Of a stretch of DNA of 64,000 nt, positions 2,844-63,560 are shown one piece after another. Position 1 is the stretch's first letter, and every line of letters begins with the position of its first letter. The notes under the pieces are model-generated. The model worked only from the letters and a program-made list of their open reading frames with translations. It did not search any database and was not told where the DNA came from. The position numbers and the translations under genes are program-made. This DNA comes from Octopus sinensis (taxonomy: Eukaryota): assembly GCF_006345805.1 (NCBI RefSeq), contig NC_042999.1, positions 35,030,001 to 35,094,000 on the forward strand, read 5' to 3'.

Positions 2844-5800
2844 GTCACTTGAACGGGAAATCCCCCAACTCGAGCCCTCCAAGTTCACCACCACAATCAC
2901 CACAGAAAGAAAAATGTAAGCGGAACAAATGGACCCGAGAAGAGTATAAAGAAGTAATATACGCTTATTACTATGCATTAGGTAGGCCATCTCAAGAGAG
3001 ACACACCGCAAACTCTTACAGTATATGGAGAACACGGAATCAAGACAGTAGGCCCTATTTGGACGAGAACAAATTAGCAAATGTGAGGAGGGATATCTTT
3101 AGAAATAACAGACTCACAGACAGTGAAATAAGCGCGATCAAGCACGCAACGGAAAATGACATAAATATAAGACACAAAGGAAATGAAGAATCAGATGAAC
3201 AGTATAGCCCGCCACGAGGCTTAATTGAAAGACTGCCATCTGACCAAAGTACGCAAAGTCCTGAAGAAATTCTATTGTACCTGTTAAAGATAGCCAGGAA
3301 AACGAAAGAACAACAGTAACTGAAGATCTCGCATTTGCTGAAGAACACAGAGAGTCTATAGCAGAAATGAGGCAGAAAATCCTGAATACGCTTGAAGTTG
3401 TAAGACATACAAGTATGAATGATAGAGAACCGCTTCATAAACTCTCAAATACAAACCAAAATAAAAAAACAAATCCAATTGGCAACTATGTAACAAATGA
3501 AATAATACGAGAATTAAACCTGATTTTACTGAGTTAAATGAAATTATTTACGCTTCTGCTAGGGCAATTGAAACCAGCTGTATGCCCCCGAAAAAACAAA
3601 GAAAACAAAACCTGGGAAGAAATCAAACCTGGAGAAGTAAAATTGAAAAAGAGATTGAATTTATGAGAGGGGAAATATCATATTAAATGAACTAATATGT
3701 GGAAATGATGTAAGATCCAGAACAGGAAGAAAGATGAAGAGAAAATTTGGATCCTCACCAAGAGAAGAACTGATATCAATAAAAGAAACGCTGAAACAAA
3801 AAGTCCAAGCAAAAGCCCAAAGAATACGAAGATTTGAGAAGAGAAACAAGTTTTACAAGCAAAATAAGCTGTTCACATCCAATGCCAAAAAATTCTACAG
3901 AGAAATAGGGAAGGAGAAAGTAACCGTTAAAGACCCCCCTCTCATGGAAGAAGTTCAAAACTTTTGGAAAAGGATTTGGAGTGACAAGAAGACGTACAAC
4001 ATAAATGCAGACTGGATTATACAAACTGAAGGATCCTACCAAATACAACAACAAGCATGGGAAGACATCACAATAGCAGACCTAAGAAAGGCACTCACGA
4101 AGGCCCATAACTGGAAATCCCCCGGTAAAGATAGGGTGCCGAATTTCTGGCTCGCATCGCTCCCGTGCGCACACGGTAAGCTAGTTCAGCTGCTCAATGG
4201 AATTATGAGAGACCCAAAGAAAACACCTGAATGGTTAGCAAGTGGCATTACTTACCTACTCCCAAAGAATAACGAAACCAACCTTCCAAAAAACTATCGG
4301 CCTATAACCTGTCTATCCACCACGTATAAAGTCCTAACATCTATCCTGGCGGAGAAAACATATGCATTCATGGAGAAGAACGATATTTTCCCCATTGAAC
4401 AAAAAGGGTGCCGCCGAGGCTCTTACGGATGCAAAGATCAACTGCTAATCAATCGTATGATCCTTGAGAACTGTCACAACAAGCGCAGAAATCTCAGCAC
4501 CGCATGGATTGACTATAAAAAGGCCTTCGACAGTATACCGCATCCATGGATCTTGAGATCACTGGACATCTTCAAAATTTCCCCTGTGATTTCAAACTTC
4601 CTGAAGCACAATAAGTCGTTGTGGAATACGAATCTCCAATTATACCACTCTAATGGAGTACTTGCCTCAGAAAATATAAACATCAACTGTGGAATTTTTC
4701 AAGGTGACTCACTTTCACCTTTAATATTCTGCATAGCCCTAATACCCCTTACAAGTGAATTAAACAGAACAGGGTATGGGTATAAAATTGCCAATAAAAA
4801 AATAAGCCATCTATTTTATATGGATGACTTAAAACTTTATGGTAAAGACAATAATGAACTTGAAGGCCTATTGCGCACCGTGAAAGCATTCAGCGATGAC
4901 ATCGGGATGGAGTTTGGACTTGAGAAGTGTGCCAAGGCCACTTTCCAGAAAGGGAAAGTGAAGACCACAAATTCAGTCGTGTTAGATGTTGACACAGTCA
5001 TAAGAGAGCTTGAGCAAGAACAAACATACAAATATTTAGGGATAAATGAAGGCTCTGGTATTCAGCATGCAAGCATGAAAGAGAAAATCAGGAAGGAATG
5101 TTATAGGAGAGTTCGTGCAGTCCTGAAATCTGAACTAAATGCACGTAACAAGGTGTTAGCTATAAATTCCCTAGCAGTTCCAGTTGTTACTTATAGCTAC
5201 AATGTGTTGAACTGGAATATGAGTGAAGTAAAGAATATAGATAGAAAAATACGCAAGCTGCTGAGTTGTAATAGGATGCACCACCAAAGGCAGACGTAGA
5301 TCGCCTTTACCTTCCCAGAGCCCAAGGAGGTCGAGGCCTGATCCAATTTGAACTAGCTTACAAAACAACCACAATTGGACTGGCCAAATATCTCGAAATA
5401 TCGAATGACTGGATGCTAAGCTCGTGGAAAATCACGAGAGACGAAAGAAGCTTCATTCTATCATCAAGGAAAGCAGAAAATTTGCTATTGATCTCGTGCA
5501 GGATACCCAAACTGAACAACCCGAGGGAAGTACGGCAACTATTGCTGCAAAGAAGGTGAAAATGATGGCAATGAAAAAAGCGCACGAGCAATTGGCTGAT
5601 AGGTGGGAGGAGAAACCTCTGCACGGCAAATATGTGACCGCAGCAAACAAGCTGATGTTGACCAGAAGCAAACCCATCAGTGGCTGCGGAGCTCAGGGCT
5701 AAAAGCAGAGAGCGAAGGTTTCATCCTGGCTGCTCAAGACCAAAGCCTATCAACCCGGAACTACCAGGCCAATGTGATGAAAAATGGAGCAGACCCAAAA

Positions 5801-6547
5801 TGCCGATTCTGCAACGACATGATTGAAACAGTGGACCACCTAATCTCTGGATGTAAAGTCTTAGCACCAGTGGAGTATAAATTAAGACATGACAGAGTTG
5901 GCCAATATCTCCACTGGCTAATAAGTCGGCATTACAATATCAAAACTGCCGACAAGTGGTATAATCACCACCCTGAGGCTGTAACTGAAGGAGAAAATGT
6001 AACCATTCTGTGGGACTTTCCAGTACATACAGACCGAACCATCAAGGCCAATAAACCAGATATTGTTGTGAAAGACCAAAACAATAAAGTTTGCTTATTG
6101 ATCGACATGAGCATCCCCTGTGATCATAATATCTCAGCGAAAGAGTTTGACAAGCTCAGAAAATATAAAGACCTACTCATTGAAATTGAGAAAATGTGGC
6201 ATCTCAAGGCGGTTACAATACCAGTGATCGTAGGAGCACTAGGAATGATCAAGAAGGGAACCGAAAATTATATGAGAATGATCCCTGGCTTACCATCCCT
6301 GCAAGAAGTGCAAAAGATTGTCTTAACTGGTACATCACACGTATTGAGAAGAGCATTGTCGATGTGAGAACTGTTGCTGCTCATGCATTTTAATTTAACT
6401 TTAAAAAAAAAAAAAATTTTTTTAAATGAACGAACTACTGAGTTTGGTTTAATGGCCTACCAATATACACTATGAGTTTCTTTGCCCTAGGAGTCGGGAA
6501 GACACTCGGCAAGAAATGGAAGAAAATTTGAAAGAAGAAAAAAAAAA

Positions 6548-31532: not shown

Positions 31533-33420
31533 CTTGTGTTTGTGTGTGGGCTTTTTTATTGATCTTAGAGCTCAGTGTGGTATGTGTATGTGTCTGTGTA
31601 TGTCTGTGTTTTATATTTAGCAGGATGGTGCGTATATATGAGTAAATTTTTGTGTTTGTGTGTATATGTGTGATTTATATTTGTCAGAGTGCTATGTGTA
31701 CGCATGTGTGTGTATGTGTTTGCTCGTGTGTGTACGTGAGCGTCTGTGTGTGCACGTGTTTATGTTTTTGTGTGTTGTGTTGGTGGGGATGCTATGTGCG
31801 TCTACGCAAGTATGTGTGTGTGTCTCTGAGTATGTTTGTGTAGGAAAACTAGGAATTTGGGGGACTTGTTCTGTGCACAGAGTTCTACGTGGCCACTAAG
31901 TGGTATCTGTCTTGTGGTGAGGTCCCTTAATTGTTGGCGGTGGACTGTCATCCTATCTCTGAGAGTAAGACTAGTCTGCCCTATGTAGTCTTTGTGGCAC
32001 ATTTCCCAACTAACAGCATAAAATAAATTTTTTGATGCGCAGGTGAAGTTATTTTTTTCCGACAAAAGTGTGTCCCAACTGGAATTTTTATATTCTTCCT
32101 TCAATGAGGTGGATGCAAGTCCTGCAGTTGGAACGACCACATTTTTAACGGTGGGTGTTGGGCTTGTGTTGGATAATTTTGCATTGGTGAGTAAGTTTTT
32201 AAGGGATTTGGGTTGTCTCTTGCTTTTTATTATTTTATTGGTTTCGAGTGCTTTCTTTAGACGTGGGTCTTGACTCAGTAGTAGGATGTTCTTGTATATA
32301 ATCGTGTAAGCTTCTGTATTTCTTGGATTATGTGTTGAATGATATGGAAGACCATTTAATGTACCTTGAGTGTCTTTCGGTTTTCGTAAGTCTTGGATAT
32401 CAATTGTCTTAGCTCATTCTATTCCATTTTCAACTAATGCTGCTTTTAGTTCTTGGAGTCTTTTATTTCGTGTTCTATAATTTGAGACAATTATACAGAT
32501 TCTTCTCGCTAGATTGAAGGGGATGTTTGTCGTCGTGTGCTTTGGTGATTGGATGTGAACACGAGGTATTCTTTGGAATCAGTTGGTTTATAGTGGATAT
32601 CAGATTCAATTTTGGTGCCTTTTTTATAATAAGGATGTCTAGAAATGGAAGTTGGTCTTGACTATATTCCATTGTAAATTTGATATGGTTTTTGTCACTG
32701 TTTTTGAATTCAATGAGTTGGTTGAGTGTGTGAGACCATAGGATGAGGCAATCATCCAAGTAGCATTTTCAATTCTCCAACAGGTATTTGTGGAAAGGCA
32801 GGTCGTATTTTGATTTGGATTGTTCATCGATTTGTAATTCTAGGTAGGCCATCACCAGATTAGCATAAGGTGGGGTAACTTTAGTACCCATTGCAGTCCC
32901 TGATACTTGTCTGTGGTATTATTATTAAAAGATAAGAAGTTGTTTTGAAGGATACACTTATAGCCCTGAATGATGAATTCTTTTCTTATTCTTTCCGGAA
33001 CTTCACTGCAGTATTTTTCTAGCCATAATTTAATGGCTTCCAATCCATATTGATGTGGGATCGTAGTATAAAGATTTTTCACATCAAAAGAGACGATGAA
33101 AATGTCTTTATTGGTATGTTTGGGAAGGGGTTCAGAAGGTCCATGTCATTTCTTACAATACTTGGTATGTGTTTAAGTATCGCTTTTAAGAGTATATCAC
33201 TGAAGTTGCTTAATTTGTGTGTTTTTGTTTGGGCCTGCCACAATTGGTCTCACTTTGAGATCAGTGGAATGTTGTACAGTGATGCAGGTTGAGGTGGACT
33301 ATAGGCAAGCCTTGGTAATTATTTTTTTATTTTAAATTTTCGGAAGCCCGAATAGGTAGTTGCTTTTGCAATCAAATTTTGTCAGGTAGTCGCATTTCTT
33401 TGCCGTTAAGCTATTTTGAT
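30935..33420 (-). mobile_element. Degraded PLE (RT + GIY-YIG + 3' region) interrupted by simple repeats
   Basis: SFDVKNLYTTIPH, (Y)LDDCLILW, IKFTMEYSQDQLPFLDILI, NFTCASKNLFYAVS..CHKDYIGQT..LRDRMTVHRQQ. A decayed hammerhead-like motif lies near 30958-30998. The 3' boundary is tentative. Confidence 0.88.
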
Positions 33421-57889: not shown

Positions 57890-58408
57890 TTTCAAATTTT
57901 AGCAAAAGACTAAGAATTTCTGGTATTTATTTTATCGACTCCGAAAAGATAAAAGGCAAAGTTGACCTCGGCAGAATTTGCACTTAGAACATAAAGACAG
58001 ACGAAATGCCGCTAAGCATTTTACCTGTCGTACTAAAGATCCTGTCGGCTCACTGCCCTAAAATTCATACGAATTGCTGTGTGTATATGTTCGTGTGTGC
58101 TTGTACACATACACACACGCAAACACAAACATGCACACACTGACACACCCACACACGCTGACACACATATATGTATATTTCTTTACTGCCAACAAGGGGC
58201 TAAACATAGAGGGAACAAACAAGGACAGACAAACGGATTAAGTCGATTACATCGACCCCAGTGCGAAACTGGTACTTTATTTATCGACCCCGAAAGGATG
58301 AAAGGCAAAGTCGACCTCGGCAGAATTTGAACTCAGAACGTAACGACAGACGAAATACCACTAAGCATTTCGTCCGGCGCGCTAACGTTGCTGCCAGCTC
58401 GCCGCCTA
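57890..58408 (-). mobile_element. Two family A SINE copies (57890-58060 and 58178-58408)
   Basis: Family core and head on the minus strand. Confidence 0.85.
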
Positions 58409-58446
58409 ATTAATAACACACACTCTCACACACATATATATATATA

Positions 58447-59294
58447 TTTAACAATTAAAGATAACTTCTTAATAAGGAATCTTAACAAGAAATTATCAGG
58501 TAGATAGCGTGAAAAACCTCATAAGAGAAAAAAATTCGAAAATAATTTTTTCTTTTGAACATATTAATTTATATTATATAGAGGGCATTATTACACATAA
58601 ATGCCTCACACTAAGAGGGACATAAGTCATTTCTACCAAAAATTTCACTAATCATACCCAATGCAGTTTTTCAAAGCAAGACATTTAAAAAATTAATTTA
58701 GTCCTATATCACCTGTGATTTCGCACTCACCGCATAAAAATTTTGGGTAGAAATGACTTATGTCCCTCTTAGTGTGAGGCATTTATGTGTAATAATGCCC
58801 TCTATATAATATAAATTAATATGTTCAAAAGAAAAACATTATTTTCGAATTTTTCTTATGAGGTTTTTCACGCTATCTACCTGATAATTTCTTGTTAAGA
58901 TTCCTTATTAAGAAGTTATCCTTAATTGTTAAATTTATTCCGAAAAAACTTTTCCGTCCGAAATGCAGTTCGAAAAAGCCCGCCATTTTACCGAATATAT
59001 GATTTATAAACATCTCCATGTGCTTCGTTGGAGAGAGCAGTTGGCTGTTCGACTTCGACGGTGTTGGTCGTTTATTTATGATGTGTTCAGAATCAGTTCT
59101 ACCGATGAGCATGGACGCAAATTTTTATGCGGTGAGTGCGAAATCACAGGTTATATAGGACTAAATTCATTTTTTAAATGTCTTGCTTTGAAAAACTGCA
59201 TTGGGTATGATTAGTGAAATTTTTGGTAGAAATGACTTATGTCCCTCTTAGTGTGAGGCATTTATGTGTAATAATGCCCTCTATATAATATAAA

Positions 59295-59297
<3 letters not shown>
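58447..59297 (+). mobile_element. Young hammerhead element: ~480-nt unit with terminal redundancy plus an inverted 5' copy, in (TA)n
   Basis: 58747-58820 repeats at 59226-59297. Region 58447-58740 is the reverse complement of 59119-59297 joined to 58820-58935. Confidence 0.9.
59095..59162 (+). ncRNA. Type I hammerhead ribozyme motif, U4C variant, AUA site
   Basis: AGTTCTA CCGATGA GCAT..GTGC GAAA TCAC-AG-GT(T/G)A TA TAGGACT. Stem I is 7 bp, and the inverted copy has the fully paired stem III (GTGA). Confidence 0.82.
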
Positions 59298-59345
<48 letters not shown>

Positions 59346-59529
59346 TATACTATATATAAATGTATATATATATAAGCGTATATATATATATATATATATA
59401 CATATATGGGCCTGCTCGCTTAGCCAGCGGGGTGGCGTCAATCGAAGGCTAAAACAATGCGAACGTATTGTGACCAGCGATGTGCACCAAAATCTGATGG
59501 TCTGGTCGGTCACGTGATCACGTGATATA

Positions 59530-59574
59530 TTCCTGATGATTTCTTTTGAATGAAACAGTTCTAGTCCTGTAGAA
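59530..59574 (+). ncRNA. Type I hammerhead motif with canonical core in a short element ending at (TA)n (~59662)
   Basis: TTC CTGATGA T TTC-TTTT-GAA T GAAA CAG-TTCTAGTC-CTG TA GAA, with a GUA site. Stem I is only 3 bp. Confidence 0.65.
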
Positions 59575-59687
59575 GCTCCTTCTATAAAATAAATTAATTT
59601 ACTCTTCTATGTATTGAGTACCTTATTTACTGTGGTTAACCCCGACTCAACCCGGGACCTACATATATATATATATATAATATATAT

Positions 59688-59735
<48 letters not shown>

Positions 59736-59914
59736 GTACATATGGGCGTTTGTGTGGGTGTGTCTTCACTTGTGTTCATATTCTGAGTTCAATTCACCAG
59801 ACTGTTACTTAAAATAATGTATTAAGTCCTATTGGTGTAGAAAGTGATAGCAACGCAGATAGAGTATTAAATATGAAGAAATAGCGTTAACAAAAACATT
59901 GAAATGCCACTTAA

Positions 59915-60126
59915 CACTTTGACATTTAAACCGGCTATATCCGGCCAAATTATTCTTGTTTTAGGTTCAAACTGGTCAGGTTCGGCATCTCACACCTACC
60001 CTAAAATGTCATTCTAAAAATATGCAATCACATCATGGAAATCTCAAAGCTACAAGACAATAATTAATTCAAAGCAATGTGAATAAATATTATTACATTT
60101 GACAGAGTAAGCTCAATGCTAAAGGG
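59915..60126. mobile_element. piggyBac-type MITE
   Basis: TTAA|CACTTTGACATT..AATGCTAAAGGG|TTAA. Confidence 0.8.
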
Positions 60127-63031: not shown

Positions 63032-63116
63032 TCAACCTAATAACGGACAGTGGGATTTAACTCTACAGTTGCAACCAGGAGCATTACTACTATTAATATT
63101 ATTGATATTCCTATCA

Positions 63117-63150
<34 letters not shown>

Positions 63151-63560
63151 CATTATTATTATTATTATTATTATTCCTACTATTGTCATCCGTGTTATTT
63201 TTATTTATGTTGTTATTTATACTTCCTTCAACTGTAGTATCATTTAAATTCATCTCAGCATCAACCGGCATTGTGTCAGTAATGCCTGCGCTAGGATAAC
63301 CTTCGCAGTCACAGTCTATATTGTACATATTAAATGTGCTAGTACTGTTGTTTCTAATTCCTACATCACCATTAATATTATTCTCAATGTAGTTTACATT
63401 AGTGTTGGCAATAATATTATTATTATTAACTCCTCTTGCCGGTTTTGTATTCTTCCTGTTTAACCTGGCTATGATGGTACCTATATTGGGGACGGTAGAA
63501 TACGACGTTCTGTCTTACGGGAAAATATTTATGGGAAGCAGGGAAGTCTTTTTTTAAAAT
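63032..63560 (-). mobile_element. PLE fragment (RT-endonuclease linker) with an Asn-rich expansion
   Basis: SYSTVPNIGTIIARLNRK..(N-rich)..CNCRVKSHCPLLG matches the PLE SYSxxPNxxxII..CNCRxxxxCPLxG motifs. Confidence 0.8.

What the first reader, a model, noticed from the sequence alone, without database searches (positions are those of the whole stretch)
58447..59297. Young ~480-nt hammerhead element with terminal redundancy and a circularly permuted inverted copy
Seen: the plus strand carries about 1.15 units (58747-58820 recurs at 59226) with one well-formed hammerhead. The adjacent inverted copy (58447-58740) starts inside the ribozyme, reads through the unit junction and is nearly identical, joined at an AAATTTT microhomology. 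Both outer ends abut (TA)n. Inference: reverse transcription from a tandem or circular RNA template with a strand switch. This is the best retrozyme/circRNA candidate in the window.
Basis: partly seen in the sequence, partly recalled or inferred. Interest (0 to 1): 0.75.

Follow-up and report, generated by a model that had tools for sequence, protein, structure and literature searches.

The report
Retrozyme family caught with Penelope partner
This is one copy of a protein-free jumping repeat that carries a hammerhead self-cutting RNA motif and lands in TA microsatellites as two back-to-back arms ending at two fixed sites; one sister copy is fused to a coding Penelope-type retrotransposon, which likely names the enzyme that copies it, probably from a small RNA circle.

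Summary
The structure is real. A 564-nt plus arm (479-nt unit + 85) is joined 5'-to-5' over AAATTT to a 302-nt minus arm, and both arms end in (TA)n. It belongs to a dispersed, ORF-less family (758 exact ribozyme-word hits) with a 455-498-nt period, multimers and a type I hammerhead whose stem I covaries across subfamilies. This copy's ribozyme is damaged (U4C core, private stem III mismatch).

The inversion is standard Penelope-like-element (PLE) geometry. Arms end at two fixed sites 116 nt apart; 49 of 56 head-to-head pairs use one of each, none use the same site twice, 7 are unclassified. Coding PLEs of this genome do the same. One locus joins a family arm to a Neptune-like coding arm under the same rule, a footprint of trans-mobilisation from two RNAs. 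Successive passes share diagnostic letters (137 of 140), so a monomer is reiterated. A circle is likely but unshown; no read or RNA evidence was obtained.

Verdict: new member of the metazoan non-LTR retrozymes. The scan noted the same two-armed pattern before in other families of this genome; the chimera was not found noted.

The parts
58434..58449 (.). Left (TA)n stub, target microsatellite
   Evidence: sequence
58447..58743 (-). Minus arm, unit positions 382-479 then 1-201; 5' end inside ribozyme stem II, 3' end at the family's long end
58447..58560 (-). 116-nt tail (unit 86-201), present at this end only
58700..58743 (-). 3' half of a hammerhead (GAAA, intact stem III, 3' strand of stem I); core and 5' strand missing
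58738..58743 (.). 5'-to-5' junction, 6-nt self-complementary overlap AAATTT shared by both arms
58738..59301 (+). Plus arm, 564 nt, ends at the family's short end (unit position 85 of the second pass)
58738..59216 (+). One 479-nt unit, no long ORF; predicted self-paired (circular fold z -3.8 against 25 shuffles)
58883..58920 (+). Predicted hairpin in the tail, about 15 nt upstream of the long end
   Evidence: prediction
59095..59162 (+). Type I hammerhead motif: stem I AGUUCUA/UAGGACU, core CCGAUGA (U4C), bulged stem II, GAAA, stem III with private mismatch at 59152; predicted cut after 59155
59217..59301 (+). Second pass, unit 1-85 (terminal redundancy)
59298..59400 (.). Right (TA)n tract, target microsatellite
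   Evidence: sequence

Best explanation
The locus is one two-armed insertion of a non-coding, hammerhead-bearing repeat family (a non-LTR retrozyme, that is a non-autonomous Penelope-like element) that is likely copied in trans by a coding PLE enzyme, most likely a Neptune-like one, from a reiterated monomer that is probably a circular RNA of about 480 nt. Shown: the unit, the conserved ribozyme fold, (TA)n targeting, two fixed 3' ends 116 nt apart used one per arm, random 5' ends, short junction overlaps, homogeneous passes, and one family/coding-PLE chimera. Inferred steps: (1) a copy with two ribozymes is transcribed, self-cleaves and is ligated to a circle; (2) the PLE GIY-YIG domain nicks both strands of a (TA)n tract; (3) each nick primes reverse transcription inside the RNA, one at the short site and one at the long site, possibly by an asymmetric dimer; (4) each cDNA stops at random, often after passing the ribozyme and the unit junction; (5) the two cDNA ends anneal over a few bases (here the palindrome AAATTT) and each serves as second-strand template for the other. 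This copy is probably a dead end: it has one complete ribozyme, and that one is damaged.
For: Ends: 98 of 109 arms in 71 loci and 65 of 69 arms in 46 further loci end at the short or long site followed by TA. Head-to-head pairs: 31 of 35 and 18 of 21 are short+long, 0 short+short, 0 long+long, 7 have an unclassified end; p=4.7e-10 for the first 31 against 50%. Coding PLEs of G000 behave alike: 15 Hydra-type pairs with a 160-nt tail (counted by eye), 3 and 3 pairs in two Neptune-like families with 40-45-nt tails. In vitro a PLE extends both strands and starts RT at two internal sites that bound the tail (PMC11167929). Chimera L221 (G000:C2:153154900-153158100): family arm with long end joined 5'-to-5' to a coding PLE arm with short end; no coding sequence on the far side. 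Ribozyme: 8 stem I variants with 3-35 copies each all pair 6 of 6; core CUGANGA/GAAA in 116 of 143 motifs, CCGANGA in 19; 8 of 14 pairs change on both sides, 0 of 500 shuffles reach this. Reiterated monomer: passes agree at 6 dimorphic sites in 137 of 140 comparisons; 7 of 261 pass-to-pass differences recur, 4 at the TA junction and 2 at CpG; same-pass and cross-pass divergence equal, 2.3% and 2.4%, 12 loci. No pile-up of 5' ends at the cut site: 3 of 109 within 5 nt. The 28 exact U4C words include no same-strand tandem pair, so no assembled two-ribozyme master of that subfamily.
Against: No RNA, cleavage or circle was observed. The partner rests on one chimera among 198 arm flanks (duplicates included), in an older subfamily, and a search aimed at further chimeras found none among 40 scored candidates. 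The family profile has no significant match to termini of any sampled coding PLE. The 116-nt tail and the long stem II resemble the Hydra-type elements more than the Neptune-like ones. Homogeneous passes also follow from a homogenised or collapsed master array, or from template jumping between linear monomers. In the one PLE tested in vitro, ribozyme cleavage was dispensable and start sites did not differ between strands (PMC11167929). Arms of one locus usually come from one lineage (median 97.5% against 79% between loci), which does not tell one RNA from two. Samples were chosen by similarity or by a ribozyme word, not at random.
Confidence: 0.6

Rival explanations
1. Same family and same two-site PLE insertion, but the template is a linear, uncleaved read-through transcript of a multimeric donor, or linear monomers joined by template jumps; no circle is needed.
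For: Internal initiation on unprocessed RNA is shown for a PLE and needs no ribozyme cleavage (PMC11167929). Dimers and a 7-unit array exist. A subfamily with a U4C core, which lowers activity in vitro (PMC3088659), still spread to about 25 loci.
Against: Passes are homogeneous in every subfamily. Stem I is kept by compensatory change. No assembled U4C copy is long enough to be the donor of all its siblings. The 143 complete motifs show no scar at the cut site (the motif search would miss scarred joints).
Confidence: 0.25
2. The enzyme is borrowed from the Hydra-type PLEs, or from several PLE clades, rather than from the Neptune-like family.
For: Hydra-type copies are abundant (17,565 candidates), have arms 97-99% alike, target (TA)n, and have a long tail (160 nt) and a long stem II.
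Against: No sequence match of termini and no family/Hydra chimera in 198 flanks; the only chimera is with a Neptune-like element.
Confidence: 0.25
3. The inverted arm arises by fold-back self-priming or a strand switch of one RT on one template (first reader; also the self-priming idea in PMC3846280).
For: The junction word here is palindromic; several joints fall in the tail hairpin with long overlaps (L018 54 nt, L028 28 nt); arms usually share private variants.
Against: It does not explain why the second arm always ends at the other fixed site, nor a chimera of two unrelated RNAs that obeys the same rule.
Confidence: 0.08
4. The copies are truncated 3' ends of a coding PLE with a fixed structure.
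For: Geometry is identical to that of coding PLEs.
Against: Arms longer than one unit return to the same unit with no ORF (49 of 109 arms exceed 479 nt; arrays of up to 7 units). No sense-attached PLE ORF in 117 loci.
Confidence: 0.03
5. The inversion at this locus is a mis-assembly.
For: PLE inverted structures trouble assemblies (PMC8557442); no reads could be laid, so the junction is unchecked; some family loci are duplicated in the assembly.
Against: The arms differ at 6 places, end at different canonical sites, and the same form with different joints recurs at 56 pairs. The element has no N.
Confidence: 0.02

Closest known systems
Metazoan non-LTR retrozymes (Cervera and de la Pena 2020, PMC7229834; Li, Clavereau and Pollet 2026, bioRxiv 10.64898/2026.07.22.740005)
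   Same: Non-coding units of a few hundred bases with a type I hammerhead, head-to-tail repeats, low GC, predicted self-paired RNA, coexistence with coding PLEs.
   Different: Mostly dispersed insertions of under two units rather than long arrays; two-armed PLE geometry with two fixed ends; a chimera with a coding PLE. The parts read of both papers propose PLE mobilisation from co-occurrence and pLTR similarity and do not describe insertion ends or chimeras. Here no pLTR similarity to a sampled coding PLE was found, and circles are not shown.
EN+ Penelope-like elements, Neptune/Nematis and Hydra clades (Craig et al. 2021, PMC8557442; Arkhipova et al. 2013, PMC3846280)
   Same: Partial tandems, inverted 5'-truncated copy, tail at one end only, (TA)n targets, hammerhead upstream of the 3' ends.
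   Different: No RT/GIY-YIG ORF; the tail is 116 nt instead of the published 30-40 bp (Hydra-type elements of this genome have 160 nt).
Poseidon PAc of Anolis in vitro (Frangieh et al. 2024, PMC11167929)
   Same: Two internal RT start sites bound the tail; both target strands are cut and extended; AT-rich targets; predicted dimer.
   Different: There the start sites are not homologous to the target and no strand difference was seen. Here both sites are TA-like, and each insertion uses one of each.
LINE-1 twin priming (recalled, not read)
   Same: 5'-to-5' inversion with both 3' ends pointing into the target, joined by microhomology.
   Different: Arms overlap freely in template position, both ends are fixed sites, and the 5' end of one arm bears no relation to the start of the other.

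Membership tests
Metazoan non-LTR retrozyme | Type I hammerhead motif | tested here: met
   Core and three stems; compensatory changes in stems I and II. No Rfam hit. This copy has U4C and a stem III mismatch.
Metazoan non-LTR retrozyme | Short head-to-tail units, dimers to multimers | tested here: met
   Period 453-498 in 56 arms; 13 exact same-strand pairs at period 468-491; 7-unit array. Slightly above the 150-450 bp of PMC7229834, inside the 51-972 bp of Li et al.
Metazoan non-LTR retrozyme | No protein coding, no LTRs, GC under 50% | tested here: met
   No ORF of 100 aa in the element; GC 0.34 for 58001-60000. PBS and PPT were not searched.
Metazoan non-LTR retrozyme | Two consecutive complete ribozymes ('active' criterion of Li et al.), this locus | tested here: not met
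   One complete, damaged motif and one half motif; met by other family loci such as L033, L034, L037.
Metazoan non-LTR retrozyme | Highly self-paired monomer | tested here: met
   Circular folds z -1.8 to -6.2 for 5 units, sense strand more stable than antisense; prediction only.
Metazoan non-LTR retrozyme | Self-cleavage and circular RNA in vivo | not testable with these tools
   No RNA data were laid; the RNA-like runs listed are contigs only.
Metazoan non-LTR retrozyme | Target-site duplication | tested here: inconclusive
   Both ends lie in (TA)n.
Autonomous EN+ Penelope-like element | RT + GIY-YIG ORF | tested here: not met
   None in the unit or sense-attached in 117 loci.
Penelope-like insertion signature | Inverted 5'-truncated copy, tail at one end only, microsatellite target | tested here: met
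   49 of 56 pairs short+long, 0 like pairs; tail 116 nt.
Derivative of a given coding PLE family | Sequence similarity to the pLTR of a coding PLE | tested here: not met
   No significant profile match in 71 loci, 30 loci and 30 loci beyond co-inserted family copies; only four PLE groups were sampled out of thousands of candidates.
Neptune/Nematis-type PLE (partner arm of L221) | C-terminal GIY-YIG with CX2-5CxxC linker and CCHH | tested here: met
   CNRPNCGIC linker, RYLDD, C..C in the GIY-YIG core and downstream His. No tree was built, so Neptune versus Nematis is open.

The most novel reading that the evidence does not exclude
The family is a genomic record of an animal retrozyme circle being read round by a borrowed Neptune-like PLE dimer whose two subunits each prime one target strand at a different, fixed RNA site and can carry different RNAs. 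The chimera would be a first direct footprint of which enzyme moves a metazoan retrozyme, and the 7-unit array with alternating dead and intact cores would be a read-round of a dimeric circle.
Probability: 0.3. Interest if true: 0.75.

Novelty: new member of a known kind. Interest (0 to 1): 0.52.

Why it matters
Which enzyme moves animal retrozymes, whether their circles are the template, and how PLEs build inverted ends are stated as open in the papers read (PMC7229834, the 2026 preprint, PMC8557442, PMC11167929). This family supplies a short defined RNA, two mapped start sites, a strict pairing rule and a named candidate enzyme, so the published in vitro PLE assay can test all three. The kind of element and the geometry are known, the pattern recurs in other families of this genome, and the partner rests on one event, which caps the score.

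Tried and rejected
Rfam: no hammerhead; the MIR2606 match (E 1.8e-11, 73.8 bits against a gathering score of 139.7) reflects the inverted-repeat hairpin and was rejected. First dimer pattern gave 0 because the word was subfamily-specific; a conserved word gave 13. A pattern for 900-960-nt periods was not accepted by the tool, so dimeric periods were not censused. Parent search: four coding PLE groups sampled, no terminal homology; a by-eye likeness between the family tail and a Neptune-like 3' end was not significant. L062 and L064 are chance hits of the 16-nt word. The 7-unit array was rejected as proof of rolling circle because units 4-5 and 6-7 share 12 private changes, a later duplication. 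L086 (604-bp period, normal last unit) does not fit one fixed circle. No read support for the junction was obtained. Literature searches for an octopus retrozyme, for Penelope with twin priming and for retrozyme chimeras listed no paper describing this family or such a chimera; the library lacks most subscription journals, and the supplements of the papers were not opened (those of PMC7229834 and PMC8557442 may list cephalopod elements; those of the bioRxiv preprint are closed).

Full report
Observation. Unit coordinates u1-479 are window 58738-59216. The plus arm runs u1-479 and again u1-85 (58738-59301, repeat 99% alike). The minus arm runs from 58743 down to about 58447 and reads u382-479, then u1-201. 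The two arms meet 5' to 5' over six shared, self-complementary bases, AAATTT, and both 3' ends point outward into (TA)n. The arms differ by six events in about 300 nt, and the nearest other copy is 95% identical, so the insertion is fairly recent but not new.

The ribozyme. 59095-59162 has the layout of a type I hammerhead with the cut predicted after 59155. Rfam does not call it and the isolated fold is unremarkable (z -1.5), so I tested it on the family. Among 143 complete motifs the core is CUGANGA/GAAA in 116 and CCGANGA/GAAA in 19; 8 have other changes. The eight stem I variants seen three or more times all pair six of six. On 18 chosen motifs, picked to span the variants, 8 of 14 pairs change on both sides and 95.6% of cells pair; no shuffle reached this and slid controls pair 20-44%. 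Related rows inflate such counts, but subfamilies are up to 30% apart. The window's subfamily carries U4C, which lowers activity in vitro but sufficed in a viroid (PMC3088659, one passage). The window copy also has a private G>T in stem III (37 of 37 others G), so it is probably weak or dead.

The family. A DNA search gave 2112 first-look candidates, 40 scored; a 16-nt ribozyme word gave 758 exact hits and 0 control hits. I examined 71 loci after dropping 12 duplicates or arrays and 46 more taken from the first 100 word hits. The period is 453-498 nt. Thirteen same-strand word pairs lie 468-491 apart and one array has seven units. No copy has a PLE ORF attached in sense, and arms longer than a unit return to the unit. 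The family is therefore non-coding.

Two fixed ends. 98 of 109 arms and 65 of 69 arms end at u85 (short) or u201 (long) followed by TA; the long class was widened for a subfamily with a shorter tail. Of 56 head-to-head pairs 49 are short+long, none is short+short or long+long, and 7 have an end of neither class; one locus is counted twice because it is locally duplicated. 5' ends are spread over the unit, 3 of 109 near the cut site, and most joints overlap by 1-9 nt. This is the PLE tail 'present only at one end' (PMC8557442, passages and section 11; PMC3846280, passages), here 116 nt long. Coding PLEs of G000 follow the same rule: Hydra-type elements (DKT, CxxC and CxH motifs; no Pfam hit) with a 160-nt tail in 15 pairs counted by eye, one further locus unclear; two Neptune-like families with tails of about 45 and 40 nt in 3 and 3 pairs. 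Frangieh et al. (PMC11167929, main text parts 1-2 of 4) showed in vitro that a PLE cuts and extends both strands and starts at two internal RNA sites that bound the tail, with ribozyme cleavage dispensable.

The partner. The family profile matches no terminus of the coding PLEs sampled. But one of 198 arm flanks tested (duplicates included) continues directly into a coding PLE read the other way. In L221 a family arm with the long end is joined 5' to 5', with one shared base, to a 5'-truncated element that ends at its own short end in TA; nothing of that element lies on the far side. Its relatives encode RT, a CX4CxxC linker and a GIY-YIG domain, Neptune-like by motif (1183 candidates). The simplest reading is one insertion made from two RNAs by one enzyme complex, which argues against fold-back by a single RT. 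Against: it is a single event, in an older subfamily; a directed search found no second one among 40 scored candidates; and tail length and stem II are closer to the Hydra-type elements. In 42 pairs with overlapping arms the median identity is 97.5% against 79% between loci, so arms normally come from one donor lineage.

The template. If a linear donor with two independently ageing passes were copied, daughters should share pass-specific differences. They do not: 273 differences in 9814 nt from 56 arms, 7 of 261 recurring, mostly at the TA joint or CpG (five array or duplicated loci left out). Same-pass and cross-pass divergence are 2.3% and 2.4% (12 loci, p=0.88). At six dimorphic sites successive passes agree in 137 of 140 cases. 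The complete list of 28 U4C words has no tandem pair and no arm long enough to be donor of all siblings. A monomer is therefore reiterated somewhere in each lineage. A ligated circle, as shown for coral, mussel and axolotl retrozymes (PMC7229834, parts 2-4 of 6), explains this together with the conserved ribozyme and the self-paired fold. A collapsed homogeneous master array or template jumping would too, and no RNA was seen. The seven-unit array alternates 459-nt units with a G8C core and 486-nt units with an intact CUGAAGA, as expected from a dimeric circle, but part of it is a later duplication and two of the long units carry GAAC for GAAA.

Comparison and novelty. It works like, and meets the sequence-level features of, a metazoan non-LTR retrozyme; Li et al. 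2026 (parts 1-3 of 5) class these as non-autonomous PLE derivatives. Cleavage and circles are untested, and this locus alone fails the two-ribozyme criterion. The scan had noted the same two-armed pattern in at least eight other findings in this genome, 218 notes fitting the look-up; none matched this sequence, lay near it or held the chimera words. I had reached the reading before the look-up. New here are the family, the counts, the long tail and the chimera. Verdict: new member of a known kind, interest 0.52; 0.75 if the circle and the named partner hold.

Noticed in passing
G000:C3:82266130-82269512 (L084, L085): Seven-unit array of the family with a 943-bp higher-order period: 459-nt units with a G8C core alternate with 486-nt units with a 27-nt duplication and intact CUGAAGA; units 4-5 and 6-7 are a later duplication.
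   Followed up: partly
L086:2163-3890 (G000:C1 near 112.63 Mb): 604-bp period holding one broken and one whole ribozyme, repeated 2.6 times, then a normal last unit.
   Followed up: partly
L294:1253-1361 (G000:C4 near 27.84 Mb): Tail-only insertion: just the stretch between the short and long sites, with TA on both sides.
   Followed up: no
L150-L157, L158-L187: Abundant Hydra-type PLEs with ORFs up to about 900 aa, a long Ser/Asn-rich linker, no Pfam match, a hammerhead with about 55-nt stem II and a 160-nt tail; longer than the published Hydra elements.
   Followed up: partly
L147 and L264-L293, 3' ends: Neptune-like elements carry minimal hammerheads with a U3-A8 core; the L221-type family has GCAA in place of GAAA (motif reading is mine).
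   Followed up: no
window 12933(-), 13338(-), 14186(+): Hammerhead-core motifs of another family, resembling the paired minimal ribozymes of PLE ends (label recalled).
   Followed up: no
window 3659-6367(+): Two long ORFs (546 and 254 aa) of a non-LTR retrotransposon with RT and a restriction-like endonuclease look (label recalled).
   Followed up: no
window 31802-32413(-) and 63032-63514(-): Fragments of a Neptune-like and a Hydra-like PLE protein (labels by recalled motifs; the second used as query).
   Followed up: partly
window 58529-58854: The inverted arms would give a hairpin RNA with a stem of over 100 bp if the locus is transcribed; this causes the sub-threshold MIR2606 match.
   Followed up: no
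L014, L018, L023, L028, L029, L037: Head-to-head joints cluster at unit 124-160, at the tail hairpin, some with long overlaps.
   Followed up: no
L124:2533-2610(+) and L150:5874-5940(+): Hammerhead motifs with long stem II that the family profile does not match; probably other retrozyme families.
   Followed up: no
L329, L330, L332 and L319, L331: Same insertion breakpoints on different contigs, likely duplicated segments or haplotigs in the assembly.
   Followed up: no
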